This document shows, piece by piece, positions 4,610-22,567 of a DNA stretch of 24,908 bases (positions within the stretch are counted from its first letter, which is position 1; every line of letters begins with the position of its first letter). The stretch lies in IMG/VR virus record IMGVR_UViG_2579778993_000003; one strand, 5' to 3'. The translations under genes and the position numbers were made by a program. The stretch comes from a virus (lineage: Duplodnaviria > Heunggongvirae > Uroviricota > Caudoviricetes). The notes beneath the pieces were generated by a model, which was given only the letters and a program-made list of their open reading frames with translations, did no database searches and was not told where the DNA came from.

Positions 4610-4616
4610 GCCCACA

Positions 4617-4850
4617 AGAAAACCCCTCCGGAGAGGGGCTAAAGCCGCGTATCTGTATCATCATGCACATGGTGCCGGGTGCCTCCCGGTGAGTTCAGCC
4701 CGGTGCCACTAAACCCGCGTCATTCTCGTTTTGATAATCAGAGATTATACCGTCACCAGTCGCCCCTCCGCTCAGGGGGATTCACCATGCGAAATTTTTT
4801 TAACAAATGCCCAGTCTGACAGGCAACTGTCAACTTACTGAATTGTGAGC
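4617..4850. repeat. Direct repeat unit A (~230 bp), degenerate copy of unit B, rich in palindromic hairpins
   Basis: Shares ordered conserved blocks with 5105-5318: aaaa(c/g)ccctccggagaggggct, gcatggtgccgggtgcctcccggtga, cccctccgc.cagggggattcaccatgc, ttttaacaaa and cagtcaac...ctgaattgtgag. The first block is a perfect 6-bp hairpin (CCCCTC cgga GAGGGG, 4623-4638) preceded by an A-run, so it is a minus-strand terminator. Confidence 0.6.
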
Positions 4851-4903: not shown

Positions 4904-5104
4904 CGGATGGGCCTGGAAGGATAGCGGTCATGTGATGCCGGTTTCCCGGTAACTCAGCACCGGTATCTGAGTCAACGTTTTCTCTACTGGGTCATTTCCG
5001 ATACGCCCTGCCTGCTGACAGGCTTTCATCACATCTGAAAATATAGCACCCTGACTGATACTGTAGTACCTAAGGTTCCAGAAACTGTGATGTATCCGGC
5101 ACAG

Positions 5105-5318
5105 AAAAGCCCCTCCGGAGAGGGGCTGGAGAGTGGCGCTATGTGCCATTGCATGGTGCCGGGTGCCTCCCGGTGAATTCAGTACCAGCACCTGAATCCG
5201 CGATTATCCCATATACCTACTCGCTGATTGCCCCTCCGCACAGGGGGATTCACCATGCCAGTTTCTTTTAACAAACTCCCCGCAAACCAGACAACAGTCA
5301 ACCGCCTGAATTGTGAGA
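5105..5318. repeat. Direct repeat unit B (~215 bp), degenerate copy of unit A
   Basis: Same conserved blocks as unit A, including the CCCCTC cgga GAGGGG hairpin (5110-5125) and the 8-bp inverted pair gcatggtg / caccatgc bracketing a variable ~110-nt core. Confidence 0.6.
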
Positions 5319-5362: not shown

Positions 5363-5439
5363 TGGCGCGTTGTACTGGATTCGAACCAGTGACCGATTGC
5401 TTAGAAGGCAATTGCTCTGTCCGGCTGAGCTAACAACGC
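5363..5439 (-). tRNA. tRNA-Arg (anticodon UCU)
   Basis: Manual cloverleaf on the minus strand: acceptor GCGTTGT/ACAACGC, D-stem GCTC/GAGC, anticodon stem ATTGC/GCAAT with loop CTTCTAA, T-arm ACTGG-TTCGAAT-CCAGT, discriminator G and encoded CCA. All stems perfect; 77 nt. Confidence 0.9.
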
Positions 5440-5452
5440 AGGATACAGATAA

Positions 5453-5529
5453 TGGACCGCCTTCGGGGACCCGAACTCCGCGCAACCAGCTTCGAAGGCT
5501 GGCGCTCTTTCCTGATGAGCTAATGGCGG
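5453..5529 (-). tRNA. Putative tRNA-Arg (anticodon UCG), slightly degenerate
   Basis: Cloverleaf fits with D-stem GCTC/GAGC, anticodon stem CCAGC/GCTGG with loop CTTCGAA, and encoded CCA. There is one mismatch in the acceptor stem (A-A), one in the T-stem (A-C), and an atypical T-loop TTCGGGT, so it may be a diverged or pseudo tRNA. Confidence 0.55.
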
Positions 5530-5536
5530 TATGTGA

Positions 5537-5612
5537 TGGTGGCCCTTGCTGGATTTGAACCAGCGACCTGGCGATTATGAGTCGCTCGCTCTCACCACTG
5601 AGCTAAAGGGCC
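5537..5612 (-). tRNA. tRNA with CAU anticodon (Met by anticodon; resembles the Ile2/lysidine-type ileX/ileZ class)
   Basis: Minus-strand sequence GGCCCTTTAGCTCAGTGGTGAGAGCGAGCGACTCATAATCGCCAGGTCGCTGGTTCAAATCCAGCAAGGGCCACCA folds as a 76-nt cloverleaf with one A-C mismatch in the anticodon stem. It closely resembles E. coli ileX as I recall it. Confidence 0.85.
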
Positions 5613-5661: not shown

Positions 5662-6711
5662 TCAAACGATTAAATCCTGAACTTCCCTGACTGTCTGCTC
5701 AAAACGTCCGGTCTCCAGCTCAACACCAATCGCACGACGCCCCAGTGCCATCGCCGCTTTTACCGTTGAACCCGACCCCATGAAAAAATCCGCAACCAGA
5801 TCACCAGGACGGCTACTTGCGCTGATTATCTGCTGCAGCATTTCTGCCGGTTTTTCGCACGGATGTTTCCCGGGATAGAACTGCACCGGTTTATGCGTCC
5901 ACACATCGGTATACGGCACCTGCACCGTCACGCCAAAATACCGCCGCAGATGTTTATATTCACTCAGCAGCTCCGCATACTGCCGGTTCAGTGAGGTATA
6001 CGTATCCACCAGCTGGTGGTGGAGCTTTTCCAGTTCACCACGCCGATGCTTCTCTTCTGCCACCCGGGCAAACAGCGCCTGTAATTTCAGATAATCGCTT
6101 TCATTCGGTAGCTGCCACTGACTGGCACTGAACCAGTGCGACACCATGTTTTTCTTTCCTGTGGCATCTGCAATCTGTTTTGCCGTTATCCCCAAGGCCG
6201 CGCGCGCATCACGAAAGTAAGAAATCAGCGGGGCCATCACATGCTGTTTCAGTGCACTGCCCTTCGCCGCATACCCGGCATCTTTCGGACGATACGGCCC
6301 CTGATAATGTTCCGCGAACAGAATGCGCTCTGTGGCGGGGAAATACGCCCGCAGGCTTTCCTTGTTGCACCCGTTCCAGCGTCCGGACGGCTTCGCCCAG
6401 ATAATATGGTTCAGCACACTGAAGCGTTCACGCATCATGATTTCGATATCAGATGCCAGGCGATGACCACAGAACAGGTAAAGACTTCCGGCAGGTTTCA
6501 GCACCCGCCAGAACTGCGCCAGACACTGGTCCAGCCATTTCAGGTAATCATCGTCGCCCTTCCACTGGTTATCCCAGCCCTCAGGCTTCACTTTAAAGTA
6601 CGGCGGGTCCGTGACTATCAGGTCAACAGAATTTTCGGGTAACGACCGGATAAATTCCAGGCAGTCGGCGTTGATTAACTCACAACTGGATATTTTTACA
6701 GTATTAAGCAT
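5662..6711 (-). CDS. Orphan DNA methyltransferase (amino-MTase, N6-adenine or N4-cytosine; motif order DPPY then FxGxG)
   Basis: 349 aa with catalytic motif IVTDPPYF near the N-terminus and the AdoMet-binding motif FFMGSGST near the C-terminus. No restriction endonuclease gene is adjacent. ATG at 6709-6711. Confidence 0.85.
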   Translation of the reverse strand: MLNTVKISSCELINADCLEFIRSLPENSVDLIVTDPPYFKVKPEGWDNQWKGDDDYLKWLDQCLAQFWRVLKPAGSLYLFCGHRLASDIEIMMRERFSVLNHIIWAKPSGRWNGCNKESLRAYFPATERILFAEHYQGPYRPKDAGYAAKGSALKQHVMAPLISYFRDARAALGITAKQIADATGKKNMVSHWFSASQWQLPNESDYLKLQALFARVAEEKHRRGELEKLHHQLVDTYTSLNRQYAELLSEYKHLRRYFGVTVQVPYTDVWTHKPVQFYPGKHPCEKPAEMLQQIISASSRPGDLVADFFMGSGSTVKAAMALGRRAIGVELETGRFEQTVREVQDLIV

Positions 6712-9823: not shown

Positions 9824-10090
9824 CTGTTTTCTCTGCTGGCGCAGCAGGTGCCAGTTGTTCAGGCTGACGTATGAAGTATAAATAAACTGGCTCCAGTGTA
9901 AAGCCCCACCTTAATGGAATAAAAACCAAACAACAGATTGCTGGGATAAAAATACAACGCTTATTATTAAAAGCGGTTAGATAAATTAAATTTTAATGTT
10001 ATGCAAATCTGCCAGATTAGCATAATATTTCATTTGAAAACCGCTGAAATAACAATCTTATCGGGATTAATCATATTAAGGTGAGTAAAT

Positions 10091-10177
10091 ATGGAAAACA
10101 ACAAATCTGCACATTACGCTCCTTTTTTATCTGTAATACTTTTTGTATTTTGTTGTGTATGGGCGGTATTTTTATAA
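10091..10177 (+). CDS. Candidate small hydrophobic peptide (28 aa: MENNKSAHYAPFLSVILFVFCCVWAVFL), below the ORF-track length cut-off
   Basis: ATG at 10091 preceded by AAGGTGA (10078-10084) with a 6-nt spacer. A short polar head is followed by a single hydrophobic helix-length segment, and the stop TAA (10175-10177) lies 18 nt before a strong bidirectional terminator. It is convergent with the protease gene. Confidence 0.3.
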   Translation: MENNKSAHYAPFLSVILFVFCCVWAVFL

Positions 10178-10194
10178 AACACACCCACAAATAA

Positions 10195-10224
10195 ATCAAA
10201 CCCGCTACAGCGGGTTTGATTTAT
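10195..10224. terminator. Bidirectional intrinsic terminator shared by the small plus-strand ORF and the protease/ATPase operon
   Basis: Perfect 10-bp stem TCAAACCCGC (10196-10205), loop tacag, GCGGGTTTGA (10211-10220), with T/A-rich runs on both sides. Confidence 0.65.
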
Positions 10225-10231
10225 ATAGTTG

Positions 10232-12496
10232 TTATACGGAAACTGGCACACGAGCAGGCAATGGATAGTGAGCCCAGTTATTAGCATTTAAAGCTCTTAC
10301 GCCATCAGCATAAACTTGTGTTTTTCCATCTAATGATTTTAAAGTTACTACAATAGTTACAGGTAAAGGCTCCATTAAGGCCGGTTCATTCGCTCTCAAC
10401 GTTGTTTTAGCTTGAAGAGCCCAGTTACCCGAAGTAATTCCTTTATTAAATGCCTTGCGATGAATTTTTACTGGTGACCACTTTCCACCATGCTCAATTT
10501 GAGCTCTCTCATATCCAGATTGACCGTTTTCTCCTTCCATAGGTACTTTTCCTTTTATAGTATTATTCTCAATTAAGCCAAAACTTAGCTCTACGTTCGC
10601 GCGAACATATTCACTGCCGGCATTAGGGTTCAGTGGTGGTGCATATGCAGCAGTAATTACAATCTCACCTTTAAATTTTCCATTTTGAATAAGTGCCGAT
10701 GGTATGGGATAGTTTTCCTTTCTCCACCTCACCCCAGGAACCAAGAATGTTTGGAAAATCAGAGTAAACCTATCATCACTATCATATAAGGTCTCAATAA
10801 CCTCATTAGGAATTCCCGCTCCCAAATAGCGTCTTTCACTTGGCGAGTAATCAGGAGAAGATAATTGAGCGGAATGAATTAATAATGCTTTAATCAATGA
10901 TGGTGAAACATTAAAGTCTGAATTAGTGGCTATTCTCTGCCATGTATGCGCAGCTAAACTTGCCACAATTGGAGCAGCAAAACTAGTACCAAAATTAGAG
11001 CAAAGCCTATTATCTGGCCCTACGACCTTTAAACTGCTTGCTCCTACATTCCAAGGTCTATGAACCCCACCGCCAGCATGGATTATATCTGGCTTTGGAG
11101 TAAATACAGGCCCAGGGCCACGACGAGTATATGGTGTCGGTGTTCCAATTTCACTTAAAGCATCATTAGCTTCCATATGAGAAACTGAACCAACTGTTAG
11201 TGCTCGGACTGACTCTCCAGGAGAGGAAATTAAATCAGCACCTCCAAGCGGATCAGGATTTGGCCATGTACGTATAGGTTCATCTACATAATTACCTGCA
11301 GCAACTACAAACAAAATACCAAATTTATCGCTGAGCCGATCTAACTCCATCGCAAAATCACTAAACATCTGCTCATTACATGGTCCGCCTCCCAAAGATA
11401 AATTCCAGACTTTTATATCTGGTCTTTTATTTACAGCATCTGCTAGCCTCAGAATTAAATCTGATATATAAGATCCATTTTCATCTAAAGCACAAACATC
11501 ATGGATTTTAGATTTTGTATCAGGAATCCATGGATGATTGTCATTTAAAAAATGAGCGCCTGATATCAATGAAGACACCATAGTCCCATGTTCATAACTC
11601 GTATCAGGAGGAATTACGTATGTTTCCCTACTCACTACCCAAGGAGTAATTGTTGCCGCGATGGGGCTTACCCCAGTGTCAAATACAGCAACAATGGGTA
11701 ATTCTTCTGATGGTACGGGAAAGCTATTTGTTTCAATGCCAACAGAATCACTTACACTAACCGGGAATGCTGAATATTTTGGTTCTGGAATTAACGTTCT
11801 TATACCCGGGTAATCAATGAGAATGTCTAATATATATCTATCATTTGGGGATAAATCCATTATCCTTAATAAGGGAAGACCACATTTTGGTCTAATCTCA
11901 TCATATTTAACTCCGTGTTGTTCTAATATAGAAATAACGTTTTCATAGTTGTTGTAAGTTGCATCTTCACCTGTGTACTCAAATAGTCGTACAAGGATGT
12001 TTGATGATTCAAACAAACCATCAGTGCCTCCTGGAACCTTCCTATTCTCATCCCAAGGTTCAATGCGCTCAATCGCGCTTAGATTAGCCAAAATCGCTTT
12101 AATATTCCGATGTAAAATGACTGACTCTAATACGTCAAAACAGCCGGCATGAGCAGCAACCAACATTTCATCTATTTTGGCATGACCGGCATTTTGCAAT
12201 CCAGCCTCTTGAGCAATTTTGTTCGGCCTATGCGTTTTGGCTATTCCCTGGTCTCTTAATTTGAAAACCAAAGTACCCAAGCTTCCAGGGTACTCTGAAA
12301 GTTTGGATTCTAAATAATGTTTACTGGTTGTTAAATTTCTTACTAGCCCTTGTCTATATTCGGCTGTTACATCAACCAATACCTTTGCCCCACCGCCAGC
12401 GTTTACTATTGCACCCAAGTCACTACTGGAAAAAGGGATTCTTAACATTGGGTTTGTAACTTTTGCGTTACTAAACTGTGTACCCCTTCTGCTCAT
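10232..12496 (-). CDS. Subtilisin-like serine protease (peptidase S8) with extra N- and C-terminal domains, 754 aa; protease component of an IetAS-like two-gene system
   Basis: Catalytic residues in subtilisin order: Asp in VAVFDTGVS, His in YEHGTMVSS, oxyanion Asn in VVAAGNY, Ser in GTSFAAPIVAS. ATG at 12494-12496 with a GGAG/AGGAG SD inside the 3' end of the upstream ATPase gene (26-bp overlap). A+T-rich relative to neighbouring prophage genes. Confidence 0.9.
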   Translation of the reverse strand: MSRRGTQFSNAKVTNPMLRIPFSSSDLGAIVNAGGGAKVLVDVTAEYRQGLVRNLTTSKHYLESKLSEYPGSLGTLVFKLRDQGIAKTHRPNKIAQEAGLQNAGHAKIDEMLVAAHAGCFDVLESVILHRNIKAILANLSAIERIEPWDENRKVPGGTDGLFESSNILVRLFEYTGEDATYNNYENVISILEQHGVKYDEIRPKCGLPLLRIMDLSPNDRYILDILIDYPGIRTLIPEPKYSAFPVSVSDSVGIETNSFPVPSEELPIVAVFDTGVSPIAATITPWVVSRETYVIPPDTSYEHGTMVSSLISGAHFLNDNHPWIPDTKSKIHDVCALDENGSYISDLILRLADAVNKRPDIKVWNLSLGGGPCNEQMFSDFAMELDRLSDKFGILFVVAAGNYVDEPIRTWPNPDPLGGADLISSPGESVRALTVGSVSHMEANDALSEIGTPTPYTRRGPGPVFTPKPDIIHAGGGVHRPWNVGASSLKVVGPDNRLCSNFGTSFAAPIVASLAAHTWQRIATNSDFNVSPSLIKALLIHSAQLSSPDYSPSERRYLGAGIPNEVIETLYDSDDRFTLIFQTFLVPGVRWRKENYPIPSALIQNGKFKGEIVITAAYAPPLNPNAGSEYVRANVELSFGLIENNTIKGKVPMEGENGQSGYERAQIEHGGKWSPVKIHRKAFNKGITSGNWALQAKTTLRANEPALMEPLPVTIVVTLKSLDGKTQVYADGVRALNANNWAHYPLPARVPVSV

Positions 12497-13625
12497 ATGC
12501 TCCTGACTCCTTCAGAATGTTTGAAATTACTCTTGATGTAAGTTTGTACAAATTAGCAAGAACTCTGATAGAAAATAATTTTTTATCTTTAGAACGTAAC
12601 CAACGAATTTCATCTTCGTAAGTGCTTAAATTTACACCTTCCATAAGCGATTGCGCAAGATACAAACGCCTATACAATTTATGGTGATTTATCACACTTG
12701 CACCTTCAATAACTGCATCCCTACGTGCATCCAAGCTCACCTGTTCAATTATTGCTCCGGATAATCCCTCCGATTTTCTTGATAAATCACTTAAATCTAG
12801 ATCGCTACATATCATATTCTTTAAACGATTTTTCCAAATTAACTCTCTCTGATGTATGTCAGGCAGAGGCATTGGAATTCTGAAGCTAAATCGCCTCCAG
12901 ATTGCAGGATCCAGAAGTTGCTCATGGTTAGTTGAGGCAATAATTACCGTATCCTCTGATGCCGCATCCATATTCTGCAATAGTGAAATGACAACTCGCT
13001 GAAGCTCACCTATATCTCTCTCATTACCTCTTGCTCCAGCTAAAGCATCAAATTCGTCTAAAAAAAGCACTGATGGCCTCTGCATTACATAATCGAAAAC
13101 CTGTCTAAGATTTTTGCTGGTTTGTCCCAATAAACTACTAATCAAAGTATCGCAACGCACTGTAAGAAGTGGAAAATCTAAGCGGGTAGCGATGTACTTA
13201 GATAACATAGTCTTACCTGTTCCTGGCTTTCCATACACGAGCATACGACTCGGCAATGCTGCATCAGCTTTAACAAACTCATCATAACGTTGAACATTAG
13301 TGATAAACTCTTCAACACGGGTACTGATTGCTGCAGGCAGAAAAATCTCTGAACTGTCTAATTTAGGATAACTGACATCAACAGTGTTGAGTCGACTATC
13401 AATATCTACCGGTAATGAGCCCAGAGATATCCCACCTCCAGCCCTTTGAGCTCCTGCCAACGCCTGGGGAGCTCTAAGCAACCTTTCTCTTATCATTCTG
13501 GCTTGCTTGACCTCCCCTTTTTGTTCGAGCTTATCTGCCAGCAACCCAGCATAATTACTAGCCATCGAAGCATTTGCCTTTGTTGCACCTTCAATGATTT
13601 TTAACACTTCTGATAAATAATCCAT
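12471..13625 (-). CDS. Classic AAA-family ATPase, 384 aa; ATPase component of an IetAS-like two-gene system
   Basis: Walker A GKPGTGKT, Walker B VLFLDEFD, and a second-region-of-homology-like segment ASTNHEQLLDPAIWRRFSF with sensor Asn and Arg fingers. ATG at 13623-13625 preceded by GGGAG with a 6-nt spacer, after an AT-rich ~190-bp leader. Confidence 0.9.
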   Translation of the reverse strand: MDYLSEVLKIIEGATKANASMASNYAGLLADKLEQKGEVKQARMIRERLLRAPQALAGAQRAGGGISLGSLPVDIDSRLNTVDVSYPKLDSSEIFLPAAISTRVEEFITNVQRYDEFVKADAALPSRMLVYGKPGTGKTMLSKYIATRLDFPLLTVRCDTLISSLLGQTSKNLRQVFDYVMQRPSVLFLDEFDALAGARGNERDIGELQRVVISLLQNMDAASEDTVIIASTNHEQLLDPAIWRRFSFRIPMPLPDIHQRELIWKNRLKNMICSDLDLSDLSRKSEGLSGAIIEQVSLDARRDAVIEGASVINHHKLYRRLYLAQSLMEGVNLSTYEDEIRWLRSKDKKLFSIRVLANLYKLTSRVISNILKESGAYEQKGYTV

Positions 13626-13818
13626 TCAACACTCCCACAACAAAAAGCCACAGCAATCAAAAAATGAGCACACAGAATCAAAATACTCTCTAATCGTAAC
13701 GCATTTTGAGATTTTTGATACGTTTTTTTGGGATTATGTAACGCCAAATGGTCATTTTGTGTCAGAAAAATAAATCTTAGTACCGAGAATATGTAGCTTC
13801 CATCCTTCATCGTTCTAT

Positions 13819-14250
13819 TCATCCCTGATCTCCAAGCCTCTCTCGAAAACCATTCTGATAAAACGCCAGCACACGCTGCATAACTTCGCTCTTCCGGCAC
13901 TCGCGACAGATTATGTTCAGACGCCTGTCGTAGCGGCGTATTTCTCCGTCTGGTAATGACCAGATAAGGTCCGGATCAACCACAGATGGTTTCTTCACCT
14001 TTGCCCTGGATAGTTTTTTGCGGGCATTTTGCCAGTCCTTACGAGCCTGTTCAGACGGGAATAACCCGTAACCAGAGTTGTATACATCGCCACTGGCAAC
14101 CAGCTCTCTGGCGAGAACGCTCATCAGATATCTTGTCGCACCTGTCTTGGCTTCCAGTTGCCGTAACGTCTCGCGCCCACTCCGGCGTACTAGCTCAACA
14201 ACCTGCCCTTTAATTTTTTCCCGCTCTTCTTGTGTAAATACTTTTGCCAT
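13819..14250 (-). CDS. Hypothetical prophage protein (143 aa from the ATG at 14248-14250)
   Basis: Strong SD GGAGG 5 nt upstream of the ATG at 14250; the track ORF starts 5 codons earlier. Basic protein with a CxxC pair near the C-terminus; no family recognised. Confidence 0.55.
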   Translation of the reverse strand: MAKVFTQEEREKIKGQVVELVRRSGRETLRQLEAKTGATRYLMSVLARELVASGDVYNSGYGLFPSEQARKDWQNARKKLSRAKVKKPSVVDPDLIWSLPDGEIRRYDRRLNIICRECRKSEVMQRVLAFYQNGFRERLGDQG

Positions 14251-19099: not shown

Positions 19100-19460
19100 T
19101 CTCCACGGGTCAGGTGGAGTGCGTGCGCCGGACACGGGTGAACATCCGGCACTGACAGTTTACTGAAAGGATATGTCCCTGAAAAGTCAGGGCATAACGC
19201 GAAAGCGCACGGCGAAATTGGTCTCTCTGTACGGTGTCGTTAAATTTAGTTCGACCGTGCGCTTCCGGTTGTGGCAATCCGCGAAATGGTGCGGCGGTAA
19301 GTATGGCGGGGGTATTCCTTCCCCCGTTGAGGACACCGGGTTGTCAGGTTGACCATACGCTTAAGTGACAACCCCGCTGCAACGCCCTCTGTTATCAATT
19401 TTCTGGTGACGTTTGGCGGTATCAGTTTTACTCCGTGACTGCTCTGCCGCCCTTTTTAAA
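19100..19460. other. GC-rich, hairpin-dense non-coding region (candidate structured RNA or DNA site)
   Basis: No convincing ORF. Several perfect stems: GCCGGA/TCCGGC nested inside GTCAG/CTGAC (19111-19156), CCCTGA aaag TCAGGG (~19177-19194), GCGCACGG...CCGTGCGC enclosing ~45 nt (~19205-19262), CGGGGG tattcctt CCCCCG (~19307-19326), and GGGTTGTCA-19 nt-TGACAACCC (~19338-19374). Confidence 0.3.
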
Positions 19461-20095: not shown

Positions 20096-22567
20096 ATGAG
20101 TAAAGTCTTTATTTGCGCCGCCATTCCGGACGAACAGGCAATAAAGGAAGAAGGTGCCGTCGCTGTAGCCACTGCCATTGAAGCCGGTGATGAACGTCGC
20201 GCCCGCGCAAAATTTCACTGGCAATTCCTGGAACATTATCCGGCTGCTCAGGACTGCGCTTATAAATTTCTTGTCTGCGAGGATAAACCCGGTATACCCC
20301 GCCCTGCCCTCGATTCCTGGGATGCTGAATATATGCAGGAAAACCGCTGGGATGAGGAGTCTGCTTCCTTTGTCCCGGTTGAGACTGAATCCGATCCGAT
20401 GAACGTCACTTTTGACAAGCTGGCCCCTGAAGTACAGAACGCTGTCATGGTTAAGTTCGACACATGTGAAAACATCACCGTTGATATGGTTATTAGCGCA
20501 CAGGAATTGTTGCAGGAAGACATGGCAACATTCGACGGCCATATCGTTGAAGCGTTGATGAAAATGCCAGAAGTTAACGCCATGTATCCGGAGCTTAAGC
20601 TGCATGCCATCGGGTGGGTTAAGCATAAATGTAAGCCTGGTGCCAAATGGCCCGAAATTCAGGCAGAGATGCGCATCTGGAAAAAACGTCGCGAAGGTGA
20701 ACGCAAGGAAACCGGAAAATACACGTCTGTTGTTGATCTCGCCCGCGCCAGAACCAATCAACAGCACAGTGAAAATTCAACAGGAAAAATCAGCCCGGTC
20801 ATTGCTGCCATTCATCGCGAATACAAGCAGACATGGAAAACACTGGATGACGAACTGGCCTACGCTCTCTGGCCTGGTGATGTGGATGCCGGAAACATTG
20901 ACGGCAGCATCCATCGCTGGGCAAAAAATGAAGTTATCGACAACGACCGCGAAGACTGGAAGCGTATCTCGGCATCAATGCGCAAACAGCCTGATGCCCT
21001 TCGCTACGACCGCCAGACTATTTTTGGCCTTGTCCGTGAACGTCCGATCGACATTCACAAAGACCCTGTGGCACTGAACAAATACATTACTGGATACCTG
21101 ACTACAAAGGGCGTGTTTGAAGATGAAGGAAGAAATCAGAGCGCAACTGATACTCTCTCGTCGCCAGTACCAGAAACTGATGCAGTGGAAACGGCAATTC
21201 CGGGCAACGAAAAAACCGAATGCAAAGTGGAAGTCGAACCATCTGTAGAGCGTGAGGGGCCGTTCTACTTCCTCTTCACCGACAAGGATGGCGAAAAATA
21301 CGGTCGCGCAAACAAACTTTCTGGTCTGGAAAAAGCACTAGCCTTGGGAGCTACGGAAATCACAAAAGAGGAATACTTCGCACGTAAAAACGGCACGTAC
21401 TCAGGTTCACAACAAAATACTGGTGCATCTGACACGACCGCACAACCAGAGCCGGTAAAAGTTACCGCTGACGAAGTAAACAAAATTATGCAGGCAGCCA
21501 ATATCAGCCAGCCTGACGCCGATAAGTTGCTTGCTGCCTCTCGCGGAGAATTTGTTGCAGGGATTAGCGACCCGAATGATCCGAAATGGGTAAAGGGGAT
21601 TGAAACCCGCGATTCTGTAAACCAGAACCAGCAAGAATCGGAACAGAACGACCAGAAAGCGGAACAAAACAGCCCAAATACGCAACAAAACGAGCCAGAA
21701 ACGAAACAACCTGAGCCAGTAGCGCAACAGGAACCGGAAAAAGTCTGCACCGCCTGCGGTCAAAGCGGTGGCGGCAACTGCCCTGATTGTGGCGCGGTGA
21801 TGGGTGACGCAACATACCAGGAAACATTCGATGAAGAGAATCAGGTTGAAGTTCAGGAAAATGATCCGAAGGAAATCGAAGGCGCTGAACATCCACACAA
21901 GGAGAATGCTGGTAGCGCTCAGGATCACGCCAGCGATAGTGAAACTGGCGAGACGGCAGATCCCTTAATTGCGATGAACGGTCATCACGTTATCACATCC
22001 ACCAGCAGGACGTGTGACCATCTAATGATCGACCTTGAAACCATGGGAAAAAATCCTGATGCCCCGATTATCTCAATAGGTGCAATATTTTTCGATCCGC
22101 AAACCGGAGATATGGGACCGGAATTTAGTAAGACTATCGATCTGGAAACTGCTGGCGGAGTCATTGATCGTGACGTCATTAAAAGGTGGCTGAAGCAATC
22201 ACGTGAAGCGCAGTCTGCCATTATGACCGATGAAATCCCGTTAGATGATGCACTGTTACAATTGCGGGAATTTATCGACGAAAACTCCGGTGAATTTTTT
22301 GTTCAGGTCTGGGGAAATGGAGCCAACTTCGACAACACGATTTTGCGCCGTTCATACGAACGGCAGGGGATCCCCTGCCCGTGGCGTTACTACAACGATC
22401 GCGATGTACGCACAATCGTTGAGCTGGGGAAAGCCATAGACTTCGATGCCAGAACGGCTATTCCATTCGAAGGTGAGCGCCATAATGCACTTGATGACGC
22501 CCGTTACCAGGCAAAATACGTTTCAGTTATCTGGCAAAAACTGATCCCGAATCAGGCTGATTTTTAA
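20096..22567 (+). CDS. Large prophage exonuclease (823 aa) with C-terminal DnaQ-like DEDDh 3'-5' exonuclease domain, Q/E-rich linker and CxxC...CxxC zinc-ribbon-like motif
   Basis: ATG at 20096. C-terminal motifs Exo I ([10 protein letters not shown]), Exo II ([12 protein letters not shown]) and Exo III ([14 protein letters not shown]). Low-complexity linker [41 protein letters not shown] followed by [16 protein letters not shown]. It occupies the recE position of Rac-like prophages, but no recT-like gene follows. Confidence 0.8.

What the first reader, a model, noticed from the sequence alone, without database searches (positions are those of the whole stretch)
10232..13625. Translationally coupled AAA ATPase + subtilisin-like S8 protease operon: candidate anti-phage defence / addiction module (IetAS-like architecture)
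Two overlapping genes (26-bp overlap, internal SD) encode a classic AAA ATPase (Walker A GKPGTGKT, Walker B LFLDEFD, SRH-like TNHEQLLDPAIWRRF) and a 754-aa S8 peptidase with an intact Asp-His-Asn-Ser set plus about 260 aa N-terminal and about 230 aa C-terminal domains of unknown function. Neither product is expected in a lambdoid replication or nin module. The pairing, gene order and sizes (about 380 + about 750 aa) match the ietA/ietS pair, described as a plasmid stability/incompatibility module on an Agrobacterium Ti plasmid and later listed among anti-phage systems. The mechanism is, to my knowledge, unresolved, and the large extra protease domains here are uncharacterised. A prophage-borne copy would probably act in superinfection exclusion or abortive infection.
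Basis: partly seen in the sequence, partly recalled or inferred. Interest (0 to 1): 0.9.

Follow-up and report, generated by a model that had tools for sequence, protein, structure and literature searches.

The report
Known IetAS anti-phage module in prophage
The two overlapping genes are a textbook copy of IetAS, an ATPase-plus-protease anti-phage defence system that is already catalogued. It is carried as optional cargo in an E. coli lambda-like prophage, so the call is correct but not new.

Summary
ietA is 12471-13625 (384 aa) and ietS is 10232-12496 (754 aa), with a 26-bp overlap and a purine-rich ribosome-binding region inside the ietA 3' end.

Both proteins match the IetA and IetS models over their full length. 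PADLOC gives E=8.9e-143 and 6.3e-300. Both also pass NCBI's curated equivalog cut-offs (526.6 vs 510 bits; 1039.4 vs 900).

RefSeq already annotates this exact DNA as iteA/iteS. It occurs in 78 of 5426 complete E. coli genomes at >=99.5% identity. The Walker A and B motifs, sensor 1, arginine fingers, and the Asp273/His303/Asn402/Ser505 set are invariant across homologues.

The pair sits in a 4.0-kb low-GC cassette (about 9840-13855). The cassette has its own conserved upstream element and a strong terminator. It lies in a variable cargo site between the replication and nin modules of a Rac/lambda-like prophage.

The system is already known. Its mechanism is still described as unknown in 2026 literature. 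This work adds structure-prediction hints only: a propeptide-like domain in IetS and an extra C-terminal helical domain in IetA.

The parts
12471..13625 (-). ietA (iteA): 384-aa classic-clade AAA+ ATPase. N-terminal helical region is aa 1-80 (nt 13386-13625), the AAA alpha/beta domain aa 81-255 (12861-13385), the lid aa 256-330 (12636-12860), and an extra small 3-helix C-terminal domain aa 331-384 (12474-12635).
   Evidence: PADLOC PDLC02196 E=8.9e-143; NCBIfam NF042959 526.6 bits vs cut-off 510; invariant G132-K138-T139, D190-E191, N233, R244-R245; best solved relatives are p97/Cdc48 D2 domains (E=4e-68). AF2 model, pLDDT 78.8.
10232..12496 (-). ietS (iteS): 754-aa cytoplasmic subtilisin-like S8 protease. 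N-terminal alpha/beta region is aa 1-267 (nt 11696-12496), including a propeptide-like ferredoxin fold at about aa 167-242. The catalytic domain is aa 268-560 (10817-11695). The C-terminal beta-sandwich domain is aa 561-754 (10235-10816).
12471..12510 (-). Gene junction: 26-bp ietA/ietS overlap (12471-12496) with the SD-like GGAG..AGGAG (12500-12510) upstream of the ietS ATG. This fits translational coupling.
   Evidence: sequence. The same 26-bp overlap is present in Klebsiella and other enterobacterial homologues. Overlaps of 41-53 nt occur in Pseudomonas and Burkholderia.
13693..13729 (-). Conserved upstream element AAAAAACGTATCAAAAATCTCAAAATGCGTTACGAT, ending 68 nt before the ietA ATG. It is a candidate for the cassette's own promoter or operator. 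An ietA SD (GGGAG) lies at 13632-13636.
   Evidence: this block is nearly invariant between the E. coli window and loci whose IetS is 74-84% identical, while the surrounding intergenic DNA diverges; no strong sigma-70 consensus was found, so promoter function is inferred, not shown.
10191..10224 (-). Intrinsic-terminator-like hairpin (15-bp perfect stem, GC-rich core, T-rich tail) starting 8 nt after the ietS stop codon.
   Evidence: dG -26 kcal/mol, z = -5.7 against shuffles.
9840..13855 (-). The whole 4.0-kb low-GC cargo cassette: leader, ietA, ietS, terminator and a 350-bp AT-rich non-coding tail. It is inserted between the prophage DUF977 gene (replication module) and the 92-aa/DUF968/RusA/Q (nin-like) module.
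   Evidence: GC 0.39 against 0.49-0.52 in the flanks; homology to other ietAS prophages starts at 9839-9841; prophages without ietAS match only up to about 9840-9882 and from about 13855 onward, and carry other cargo between.

Best explanation
This is a canonical two-gene IetAS (PGAP spelling IteAS) anti-phage defence system. It is carried as a self-contained cargo cassette in a lambdoid (Rac-like, ompW-adjacent) E. coli prophage.

Shown here: both proteins are full-length, curated-threshold members of the IetA and IetS families with all catalytic residues intact. Both are cytoplasmic. The genes overlap and are probably translationally coupled. The cassette has foreign base composition, a conserved leader and its own terminator. 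It occupies a variable cargo site rather than being part of the phage core.

Inferred mechanism, from literature on homologues plus the predicted structures: IetS is a latent intracellular subtilase and acts as the toxic effector. Part of its restraint may come from a built-in propeptide-like domain just N-terminal to the catalytic domain. IetA is a Cdc48/p97-D2-like AAA+ machine whose ATPase activity restrains IetS in uninfected cells, in an antitoxin-like way, and probably acts as the infection sensor. When a phage product engages or disables IetA, IetS is unleashed and cleaves cellular and/or phage proteins. The infected lysogen stops growing or dies before the superinfecting phage completes its cycle (abortive infection). 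This protects the clonal population and hence the prophage.
For: Identity: (Pfam, PADLOC, NCBIfam equivalog cut-offs passed). RefSeq annotates the identical DNA as iteA/iteS, and 78 of 5426 complete E. coli genomes carry it at >=99.5% identity.

Intact chemistry: (invariant D273/H303/N402/S505; Walker A/B, N233, R244/R245).

Conserved pairing and overlap across Enterobacteriaceae, Pseudomonas, Burkholderia and Agrobacterium plasmids.

Cargo status.

Effector/antitoxin logic and need for protease activity: PMC13069673. It cites Yamamoto 2009 for IetS as toxin and IetA as antitoxin, reports that protease activity is required for defence, and reports that ietA-mutant constructs could not be obtained.

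Abortive-infection phenotype and triggering by a single phage protein (SPbeta YosG) for a B. cereus IetAS: preprint 10.1101/2022.08.27.505566.

Prophage location of ietAS in E. coli: preprint 10.1101/2022.08.21.504612.

Cytoplasmic location.
Against: No experiment was done on this allele. I could not read Gao et al. 2020 or Yamamoto et al. 2009 directly, so their findings are taken from citing papers.

The abortive-infection and trigger data come from a distant Bacillus homologue. In Wu et al. an E. coli (ECOR52) ietAS alone gave limited protection.

The archetypal pTiC58 IetS is only weakly similar to this IetS (E=3e-5), so toxin-antitoxin behaviour may not transfer.

The propeptide-like domain has no sequence-level support (no Pfam I9 hit). 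Its position relative to the active site could not be inspected.

The pore-loop-1 position reads Leu-Leu-Gly (L165-L166-G167; L166 and G167 invariant, L165 nearly invariant) rather than the usual aromatic-hydrophobic-Gly. This leaves open whether IetA threads substrates at all.
Confidence: 0.9

Rival explanations
1. The main role is prophage addiction or stabilisation, acting as a toxin-antitoxin module as on pTiC58. Loss of the prophage would leave the stable IetS protease unopposed and kill cured cells. Phage defence would be a side effect or absent for this allele.
For: IetAS was first described as a plasmid stability/incompatibility TA system, and ietA mutants are unclonable (PMC13069673). 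The cassette travels with mobile elements: prophages, ICEs, Pf phages and plasmids. The ECOR52 ietAS alone gave limited anti-phage activity.
Against: Systems of this family are reported to protect against phages and to need protease activity for it. NCBI's curated equivalog that names the proteins 'anti-phage' is passed. The pTiC58 protease is only marginally similar to this one. The two roles are not mutually exclusive.
Confidence: 0.25
2. Direct, non-abortive immunity. IetS specifically cleaves an essential protein of the superinfecting phage, with IetA unfolding or presenting it like a regulatory particle. The host cell survives.
For: IetA is most similar to the Cdc48/p97, PAN and FtsH unfoldases that feed proteases. 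The large, highly conserved IetS C-terminal beta-sandwich could be a substrate- or partner-binding domain.
Against: A Bacillus homologue becomes toxic when the phage trigger is expressed alone, and cultures collapse at high MOI. ietA-mutant constructs could not be obtained, which points to self-toxicity of IetS. The pore loop is non-canonical.
Confidence: 0.15
3. The pair is a core morphogenesis or replication function of this prophage family, for example a maturation protease with its ATPase.
For: It lies in the early-right operon, in the same orientation as the replication and nin genes.
Against: It is present in only 78 of 5426 E. coli genomes. The flanking DUF977 and DUF968 genes occur in thousands of genomes with unrelated cargo at the same site, including QueH, HokD, RelE/ParD, Paa and hydrolases. 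Its GC content is foreign. The same pair occurs outside prophages in Pseudomonas, Burkholderia and on plasmids. There is no PHROG-type structural context. The prophage's lysis and terminase genes lie elsewhere.
Confidence: 0.01

Closest known systems
IetAS anti-phage defence system (Gao et al. 2020; PADLOC IetA PDLC02196 / IetS PDLC02197; NCBIfam NF042959 IteA / NF042956 IteS)
   Same: Gene order, sizes, overlap, and full-length HMM matches above curated cut-offs. Intact AAA+ and S8 catalytic residues. Location on a mobile element. RefSeq gives the identical DNA these names.
   Different: Nothing detectable; this is a member.
IetA/IetS toxin-antitoxin stability module of Agrobacterium pTiC58 (Yamamoto et al. 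2009)
   Same: An AAA ATPase gene directly followed by an S8 peptidase gene (L003 17874-21371). The ATPase cores are 36% identical (E=1e-42). I inferred that this L003 pair is the archetypal ietA/ietS from its position on pTiC58; it was not confirmed against the original paper.
   Different: The pTiC58 proteins are 328 and 836 aa. The protease aligns only partially and weakly (25% over about 250 aa, E=3e-5), so its N- and C-terminal regions are not demonstrably homologous. A second Agrobacterium/Rhizobium plasmid pair (pRi, L002) is closer: 39% and 28% identity, with the IetS alignment running through the C-terminal domain.
ietHAS (Liu-DS4), the three-gene IetAS variant with an SNF2-family helicase (NAR 2026, PMC13069673)
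   Same: It shares the IetA and IetS components and the requirement for protease activity.
   Different: No helicase gene is adjacent here. Upstream is the phage DUF977 gene and downstream is 350 bp of non-coding DNA.
Bacillus cereus m1293 IetAS (Stokar-Avihail et al. preprint)
   Same: It is filed under the same system name. It provides the only trigger and abortive-infection data available.
   Different: It is a Gram-positive homologue tested in B. subtilis against SPbeta-like phages. Its sequence relationship to this allele was not measured here.
Subtilases with retained prodomains and C-terminal beta-sandwich domains (Tk-SP 3afg, KP-43 1wmd, CspB 4i0w)
   Different: Those are secreted or spore-associated enzymes with 17-24% identity. 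IetS is cytoplasmic, has an additional N-terminal region of about 165 aa, and is partnered with an AAA+ ATPase.

Membership tests
IetAS defence system | An AAA+ ATPase gene immediately upstream of, and co-oriented with, an S8 peptidase gene | tested here: met
   12471-13625(-) then 10232-12496(-), with a 26-bp overlap.
IetAS defence system | The ATPase matches the IetA family model above the curated threshold | tested here: met
   PDLC02196 E=8.9e-143, aa 1-374 on model positions 1-371 of 374. NF042959 equivalog 526.6 bits against cut-off 510.
IetAS defence system | The protease matches the IetS family model above the curated threshold | tested here: met
   PDLC02197 E=6.3e-300, aa 12-753 on model positions 3-748 of 749. 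NF042956 equivalog 1039.4 bits against cut-off 900.
IetAS defence system | Intact S8 catalytic triad and oxyanion Asn (protease activity is reported as required for defence) | tested here: met
   D273, H303, N402 and S505 are invariant in 58-59 homologues, including an Agrobacterium plasmid IetS.
IetAS defence system | Intact AAA+ ATPase motifs (Walker A, Walker B, sensor 1, Arg fingers) | tested here: met
   G132-P-G-T-G-K138-T139, D190-E191, N233 and R244-R245 are invariant in 53 homologues.
IetAS defence system | Confers resistance to phage infection when expressed | not testable with these tools
   Only literature on homologues is available. No data exist for this allele.
IetAS toxin-antitoxin (pTiC58 archetype) | Sequence homology of both components to pTiC58 IetA and IetS | tested here: inconclusive
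   ATPase: 36% identity, E=1e-42. Protease: only E=3e-5 over part of the catalytic domain. Same architecture, distant subfamily.
IetAS toxin-antitoxin (pTiC58 archetype) | IetS is toxic without IetA, and the module stabilises its replicon | not testable with these tools
   Reported for homologues (PMC13069673).
ietHAS three-gene variant | An adjacent SNF2-family helicase gene (ietH) | tested here: not met
   the neighbours are a DUF977 phage gene and non-coding DNA.
CBASS-associated TRIP13/HORMA regulators | A TRIP13-type AAA+ with neighbouring HORMA and CD-NTase genes | tested here: not met
   The TRIP13 models score far below IetA (E=2.4e-16 against 8.9e-143). No such neighbours are present.
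Phage core morphogenesis protease/ATPase | Conserved presence and position across the phage family | tested here: not met
   present in 78 of 5426 genomes, with alternative cargo at the same site in related prophages.

The most novel reading that the evidence does not exclude
IetS is a cytoplasmic zymogen whose N-terminal region contains subtilisin-propeptide-like (ferredoxin-fold) domains that plug or chaperone the active site. IetA is the AAA+ machine that controls this plug, either holding it in place or stripping it off when a phage protein engages the ring. In addition, IetA's conserved C-terminal three-helix, HTH-like domain binds the conserved leader element (13693-13729) to autoregulate the cassette, as classical antitoxins do. 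This would give a concrete, testable activation mechanism for a defence system whose mechanism is still described as unknown.
Probability: 0.2. Interest if true: 0.5.

Novelty: already known. Interest (0 to 1): 0.15.

Why it matters
As a genome feature it is routine: NCBI's pipeline and PADLOC already name it. Its practical value is as a clean, compact, naturally prophage-borne example of IetAS, a 4.0-kb cassette with its own leader and terminator in a tractable E. coli background. The system's trigger, substrates and ATPase-protease coupling remain unsolved according to papers up to 2026, and no solved structure of either component was found. The structural hints recorded here suggest specific mutants and assays: a propeptide-like domain, a strongly conserved C-terminal beta-sandwich, a non-aromatic pore loop, an HTH-like tail on IetA, and a conserved leader element. 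They are predictions only. The locus also documents the replication/nin junction of lambdoid prophages, downstream of DUF977, as a cargo site that holds toxin-antitoxin, defence and virulence genes in different strains.

Tried and rejected
1. I tried to read the primary papers, Gao et al. 2020 (PMID 32855333 / PMC7985843) and Yamamoto et al. 2009 (PMC2704731). Neither is held. I therefore could not establish whether this allele is the experimentally tested one, or its phage spectrum.

2. I searched for mechanistic or structural IetAS papers. None was found. The most recent statements say the mechanism is unknown.

3. Pfam scans of the four accessory regions at E<=10 gave no hits. The regions were IetA N-terminus, IetA C-terminus, IetS aa 1-259 and IetS aa 550-754.

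4. I tested the idea that the IetA C-terminal domain is an HTH against PDB sequences. The single sequence gave nothing meaningful. A 22-sequence profile gave only weak matches to a motif in mitochondrial ribosomal proteins (E=2e-4). There was no match to a DNA-binding HTH family, so the HTH reading remains a guess based on the sequence pattern and the three-helix prediction.

5. The sigma-70 promoter scan found no consensus promoter in the 13626-13830 leader. Short repeats and palindromes in the leader are unconvincing in AT-rich DNA. Only the cross-species conserved block was kept.

It was repeated without that sequence.

7. I looked for other defence systems among ten neighbouring window proteins with PADLOC. 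Only an orphan type II methyltransferase and a weak DEDDh exonuclease hit appeared.

8. ECOR52, the source of the ietAS used by Wu et al., was not among the 60 of 78 matching genomes listed.

9. I could not model the IetA-IetS complex, or inspect model coordinates to see whether the aa 243-267 linker lies in the active-site cleft. The tools do not allow either.
Full report
**Observation**

The ORF listing shows two long overlapping ORFs, both on the minus strand. The first is 12471-13625 (384 aa). The second is 10232-12496 (754 aa). They overlap by 26 bp.

The sequence at the junction shows GGAG..AGGAG at 12500-12510, just upstream of the ietS ATG at 12496 and inside the 3' end of the first gene. 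A GGGAG lies 6 nt before the ietA ATG.

GKPGTGKT is at aa 132, LFLDEFD at aa 187, and TNHEQLLDPAIWRRF at aa 232 of the ATPase. VFDTG (D273), EHGT (H303), AAGN (N402) and GTSFAAP (S505) are in the protease.

Pfam assigns AAA (PF00004, E=2.6e-30, aa 128-253) and Peptidase_S8 (PF00082, E=5.6e-26, aa 268-544). The only addition is the strand.

**Identity**

PADLOC models for IetA (PDLC02196, E=8.9e-143) and IetS (PDLC02197, E=6.3e-300) match essentially end to end. NCBIfam equivalog models NF042959 'anti-phage ATPase IteA' (526.6 bits, cut-off 510) and NF042956 'S8 family anti-phage peptidase IteS' (1039.4 bits, cut-off 900) are both passed. PGAP spells the names IteA/IteS, but it is the same system.

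The window is 100% identical to E. coli strain 102651 (NZ_CP189662.1), where RefSeq annotates the two genes as iteA and iteS. The coding region is found in 78 of 5426 complete E. coli genomes. All copies are chromosomal and all are >=99.5% identical. Two of the listed records carry a disrupted iteS. The region is also in one deposited phage genome, vB_EcoS-683R6 (99.6%). There the genes are annotated only as 'S8 family peptidase' and 'cell division protein FtsH'.

**Conservation**

The large protein database holds full-length IetS and IetA homologues at 50-86% identity. Named sources include Morganella, Klebsiella, Leclercia, Providencia, Salmonella, Aeromonas, Pseudomonas, Burkholderia, Comamonas and Ralstonia, and many are named IteS/IteA by NCBI.

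In a 58-sequence IetS alignment, and in a 59-sequence version that adds an Agrobacterium pRi-plasmid homologue, D273, H303, N402 and S505 are invariant.

In a 53-sequence IetA alignment the following are invariant: Walker A (G132..K138-T139), Walker B (D190-E191), sensor 1 (N233), the two SRH arginines (R244, R245) and R302. At the pore-loop-1 position S163, S164, L166 and G167 are invariant and L165 is nearly invariant. This gives a Leu-Leu-Gly loop rather than the usual aromatic-hydrophobic-Gly.

The gene pairing and the overlap are conserved. The overlap is 26 bp in Klebsiella and another enterobacterium and 41-53 nt in P. aeruginosa and Burkholderia.

**Genomic setting**

The window is a lambdoid, Rac-like prophage integrated next to ompW. 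The annotated order runs integrase/excisionase, dicB/DicF region, repressor region, ydaT/replication genes, DUF1627, DUF977, iteA, iteS, a 92-aa hypothetical, DUF968, RusA, the Q-like antiterminator, an orphan methyltransferase, tRNAs, lysis genes and terminase.

The ietAS region is a low-GC island: 0.39 for 9840-13855 against 0.49-0.52 on either side.

Two comparisons define the cassette ends. Other ietAS-bearing prophages lose homology with the window at 9839-9841 and have different downstream genes, DUF1367/DUF1364/DUF1133 instead of DUF968/RusA/Q. Prophages without ietAS match the window only up to about 9840-9882 and again from about 13855. Between DUF977 and DUF968 they carry quite different cargo, including QueH, HokD, RelE/ParD, the Paa adhesin, an alpha/beta hydrolase, DUF7167 proteins and IS elements.

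In Klebsiella and another enterobacterium, ietAS homologues with 74-84% identical IetS sit at the equivalent place, directly after lambda-P-like, DnaC-like or DUF977 replication genes. From general knowledge of lambda's gene order (O-P-ren-nin-Q), this corresponds to the ren/nin junction.

The pair is therefore optional cargo, not a core phage function.

**Cassette anatomy**

A 15-bp perfect hairpin with a T-rich tail begins 8 nt after the ietS stop codon (10191-10224). Its dG is -26 kcal/mol and z is -5.7 against shuffles. About 350 bp of AT-rich DNA follows, with no credible ORF.

Upstream of ietA the consensus scan finds no strong sigma-70 promoter. However, an alignment of the leaders from the window and the 74-84% loci shows a nearly invariant 37-nt block within otherwise divergent sequence. 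The block is AAAAAACGTATCAAAAATCTCAAAATGCGTTACGAT at window 13693-13729. I interpret it as the cassette's own promoter or operator. This is inference only.

**Predicted structures**

IetS gives a confident AF2 model (pLDDT 85.3, pTM 0.89) with three parts:
- an alpha/beta N-terminal region (aa about 1-245);
- the subtilase core (about 268-560);
- a beta-sandwich C-terminal domain (about 575-745) that is very strongly conserved.

Neither protein has a hydrophobic segment, so both should be cytoplasmic.

IetA is modelled less confidently (pLDDT 78.8). It shows an N-terminal helical bundle, a classic AAA module plus lid, and an extra three-helix C-terminal domain (aa 336-372). The conserved pattern of that domain (FSlRxLAxLYxxSTRxITNILKE) looks like a helix-turn-helix. 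Pfam and PDB sequence searches do not confirm this.

By sequence, IetA's nearest solved relatives are p97/Cdc48 D2 domains (E=4e-68). IetS's nearest is Tk-SP (E=4e-14). No IetA or IetS structure appears in the PDB copy searched.

**What is known about function**

I could not open Gao et al. 2020 or Yamamoto et al. 2009. What follows comes from papers that cite them.

A 2026 NAR paper (PMC13069673) makes four relevant statements:
- IetAS was first described as a plasmid-stabilising toxin-antitoxin pair, with the protease as toxin and the ATPase as antitoxin.
- Its anti-phage mechanism 'remains unknown'.
- Protease activity is required for defence.
- Constructs with mutated ietA could not be obtained.

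The same paper describes a three-gene variant with a helicase (ietHAS), which is not what is present here.

A Sorek-lab preprint (10.1101/2022.08.27.505566) found that a B. cereus IetAS behaves as an abortive-infection system. It becomes toxic when the SPbeta gene yosG is expressed.

Wu et al. (10.1101/2022.08.21.504612) cloned ietAS from ECOR52. They describe prophage location as a possible explanation for its mutual exclusion with Zorya II. They also found limited activity for ietAS on its own.

Other surveys repeat that the mechanism is unknown.

**Relationship to the archetype**

pTiC58 carries an ATPase (328 aa) plus S8 peptidase (836 aa) pair. I take this to be the archetypal ietA/ietS. 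That identification rests on its position on pTiC58 and was not checked against the original paper. The ATPase is clearly homologous (36% identity, E=1e-42). The protease aligns only weakly and partially (E=3e-5). A pRi-plasmid pair is closer: 39% and 28% identity, with the alignment running through the C-terminal domain. The E. coli system therefore belongs to a different subfamily from the original TA module. PADLOC handles this diversity with several IetA and IetS models.

**Most likely mechanism**

These points are shown: the identity, the intact chemistry, the cytoplasmic location, the coupling, and the cargo status.

These points are inferred. IetS is the latent toxic effector. IetA's ATPase activity keeps it in check and probably senses infection. 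A phage product perturbs IetA, IetS is released and degrades cellular and/or phage proteins, and the infection aborts.

The propeptide-like domain suggests zymogen-style auto-inhibition that IetA could enforce or relieve. This last step is speculative; I give it about 0.2.

The rivals are a primary role in prophage addiction (not exclusive with defence, about 0.25), direct non-abortive proteolysis of a phage target (about 0.15), and a core phage function (refuted).

**Verdict**

The finding is real and correctly interpreted, but it is an already catalogued and automatically annotated defence system. Novelty: already known. Interest: low (0.15). The residual value is that the IetAS mechanism is still open, and this cassette is a convenient native example.

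Noticed in passing
window 9840-13855 relative to related prophages: The junction between the replication module (after DUF977) and the nin-like module (DUF968/RusA/Q) is a variable cargo site in E. coli lambdoid prophages. Depending on the strain it holds IetAS, QueH, HokD, RelE/ParD, the Paa adhesin, an alpha/beta hydrolase, DUF7167 proteins or IS elements.
   Followed up: partly
window 13693-13729 (-): A 37-nt block in the ietA leader is nearly invariant between E. coli and loci whose IetS is only 74-84% identical, while the rest of the leader diverges. It is a candidate promoter or operator. The consensus scan found no sigma-70 match.
   Followed up: partly
window 12474-12635 (-), IetA aa 331-384: A conserved extra three-helix C-terminal domain has an HTH-like pattern (FSIRVLANLYKLTSRVISNILKE). 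It has no Pfam hit. Its profile matches only a motif in mitochondrial ribosomal proteins mS45/mL-type (E=2e-4).
   Followed up: partly
window 13125-13139 (-), IetA aa 163-167: The pore-loop-1 position reads Ser-Ser-Leu-Leu-Gly. S163, S164, L166 and G167 are invariant and L165 is nearly invariant. Classic-clade AAA+ unfoldases usually have an aromatic-hydrophobic-Gly motif here.
   Followed up: no
L005 (ON470595.1, phage vB_EcoS-683R6) 5001-8591: The deposited phage record annotates IetA as 'cell division protein FtsH' and IetS as a shorter S8 peptidase starting at Met17, with no overlap. It also calls a 73-aa 'kinase (fragment)' ORF across the ietA leader. RefSeq calls none of these. The SD sequence supports the upstream ietS start at 12496.
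   Followed up: partly
H140 (NZ_AP040205.1) and H141 (NZ_CP196120.1): In two of the listed E. coli genomes the iteS gene appears disrupted. It is annotated as 'S8 family peptidase' plus 'hypothetical protein', while iteA stays intact. This is notable if IetS is the toxin.
   Followed up: no
window 19401-19452 (+); 4610-4819 (-) and 5097-5287 (-): A DicF sRNA (76.7 bits) lies next to dicB/ydfD. Two copies of the STnc100 sRNA family (161 and 136 bits) lie in the late-region leader.
   Followed up: no
window 5363-5612 (-): Three prophage tRNA genes lie downstream of the Q-like antiterminator: Arg-TCT, Arg-TCG and a CAT-anticodon tRNA. ARAGORN calls the third Met; RefSeq calls it Ile, presumably lysidine-modified.
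   Followed up: no
window 5662-6711 (-): An orphan type II DNA methyltransferase (PADLOC MTase_II PDLC03265, E=5e-166) has no adjacent restriction gene.
   Followed up: no
window 20096-22567 (+): An 823-aa early-left protein has a C-terminal DEDDh 3'-5' exonuclease domain (PADLOC DEDDh E=1.5e-5, aa 643-807). RefSeq annotates it as '3'-5' exoribonuclease domain-containing protein'.
   Followed up: no
L006 (P. aeruginosa contig JBCIYL010000008.1) 2473-12880: The Pseudomonas IetAS homologue sits in a defence-island-like neighbourhood with Fic/DUF4172, NERD, an AAA_15/AAA_21 ATPase pair and an IS30-like transposase. Its IetA was called with a longer N-terminus (478 aa).
   Followed up: no
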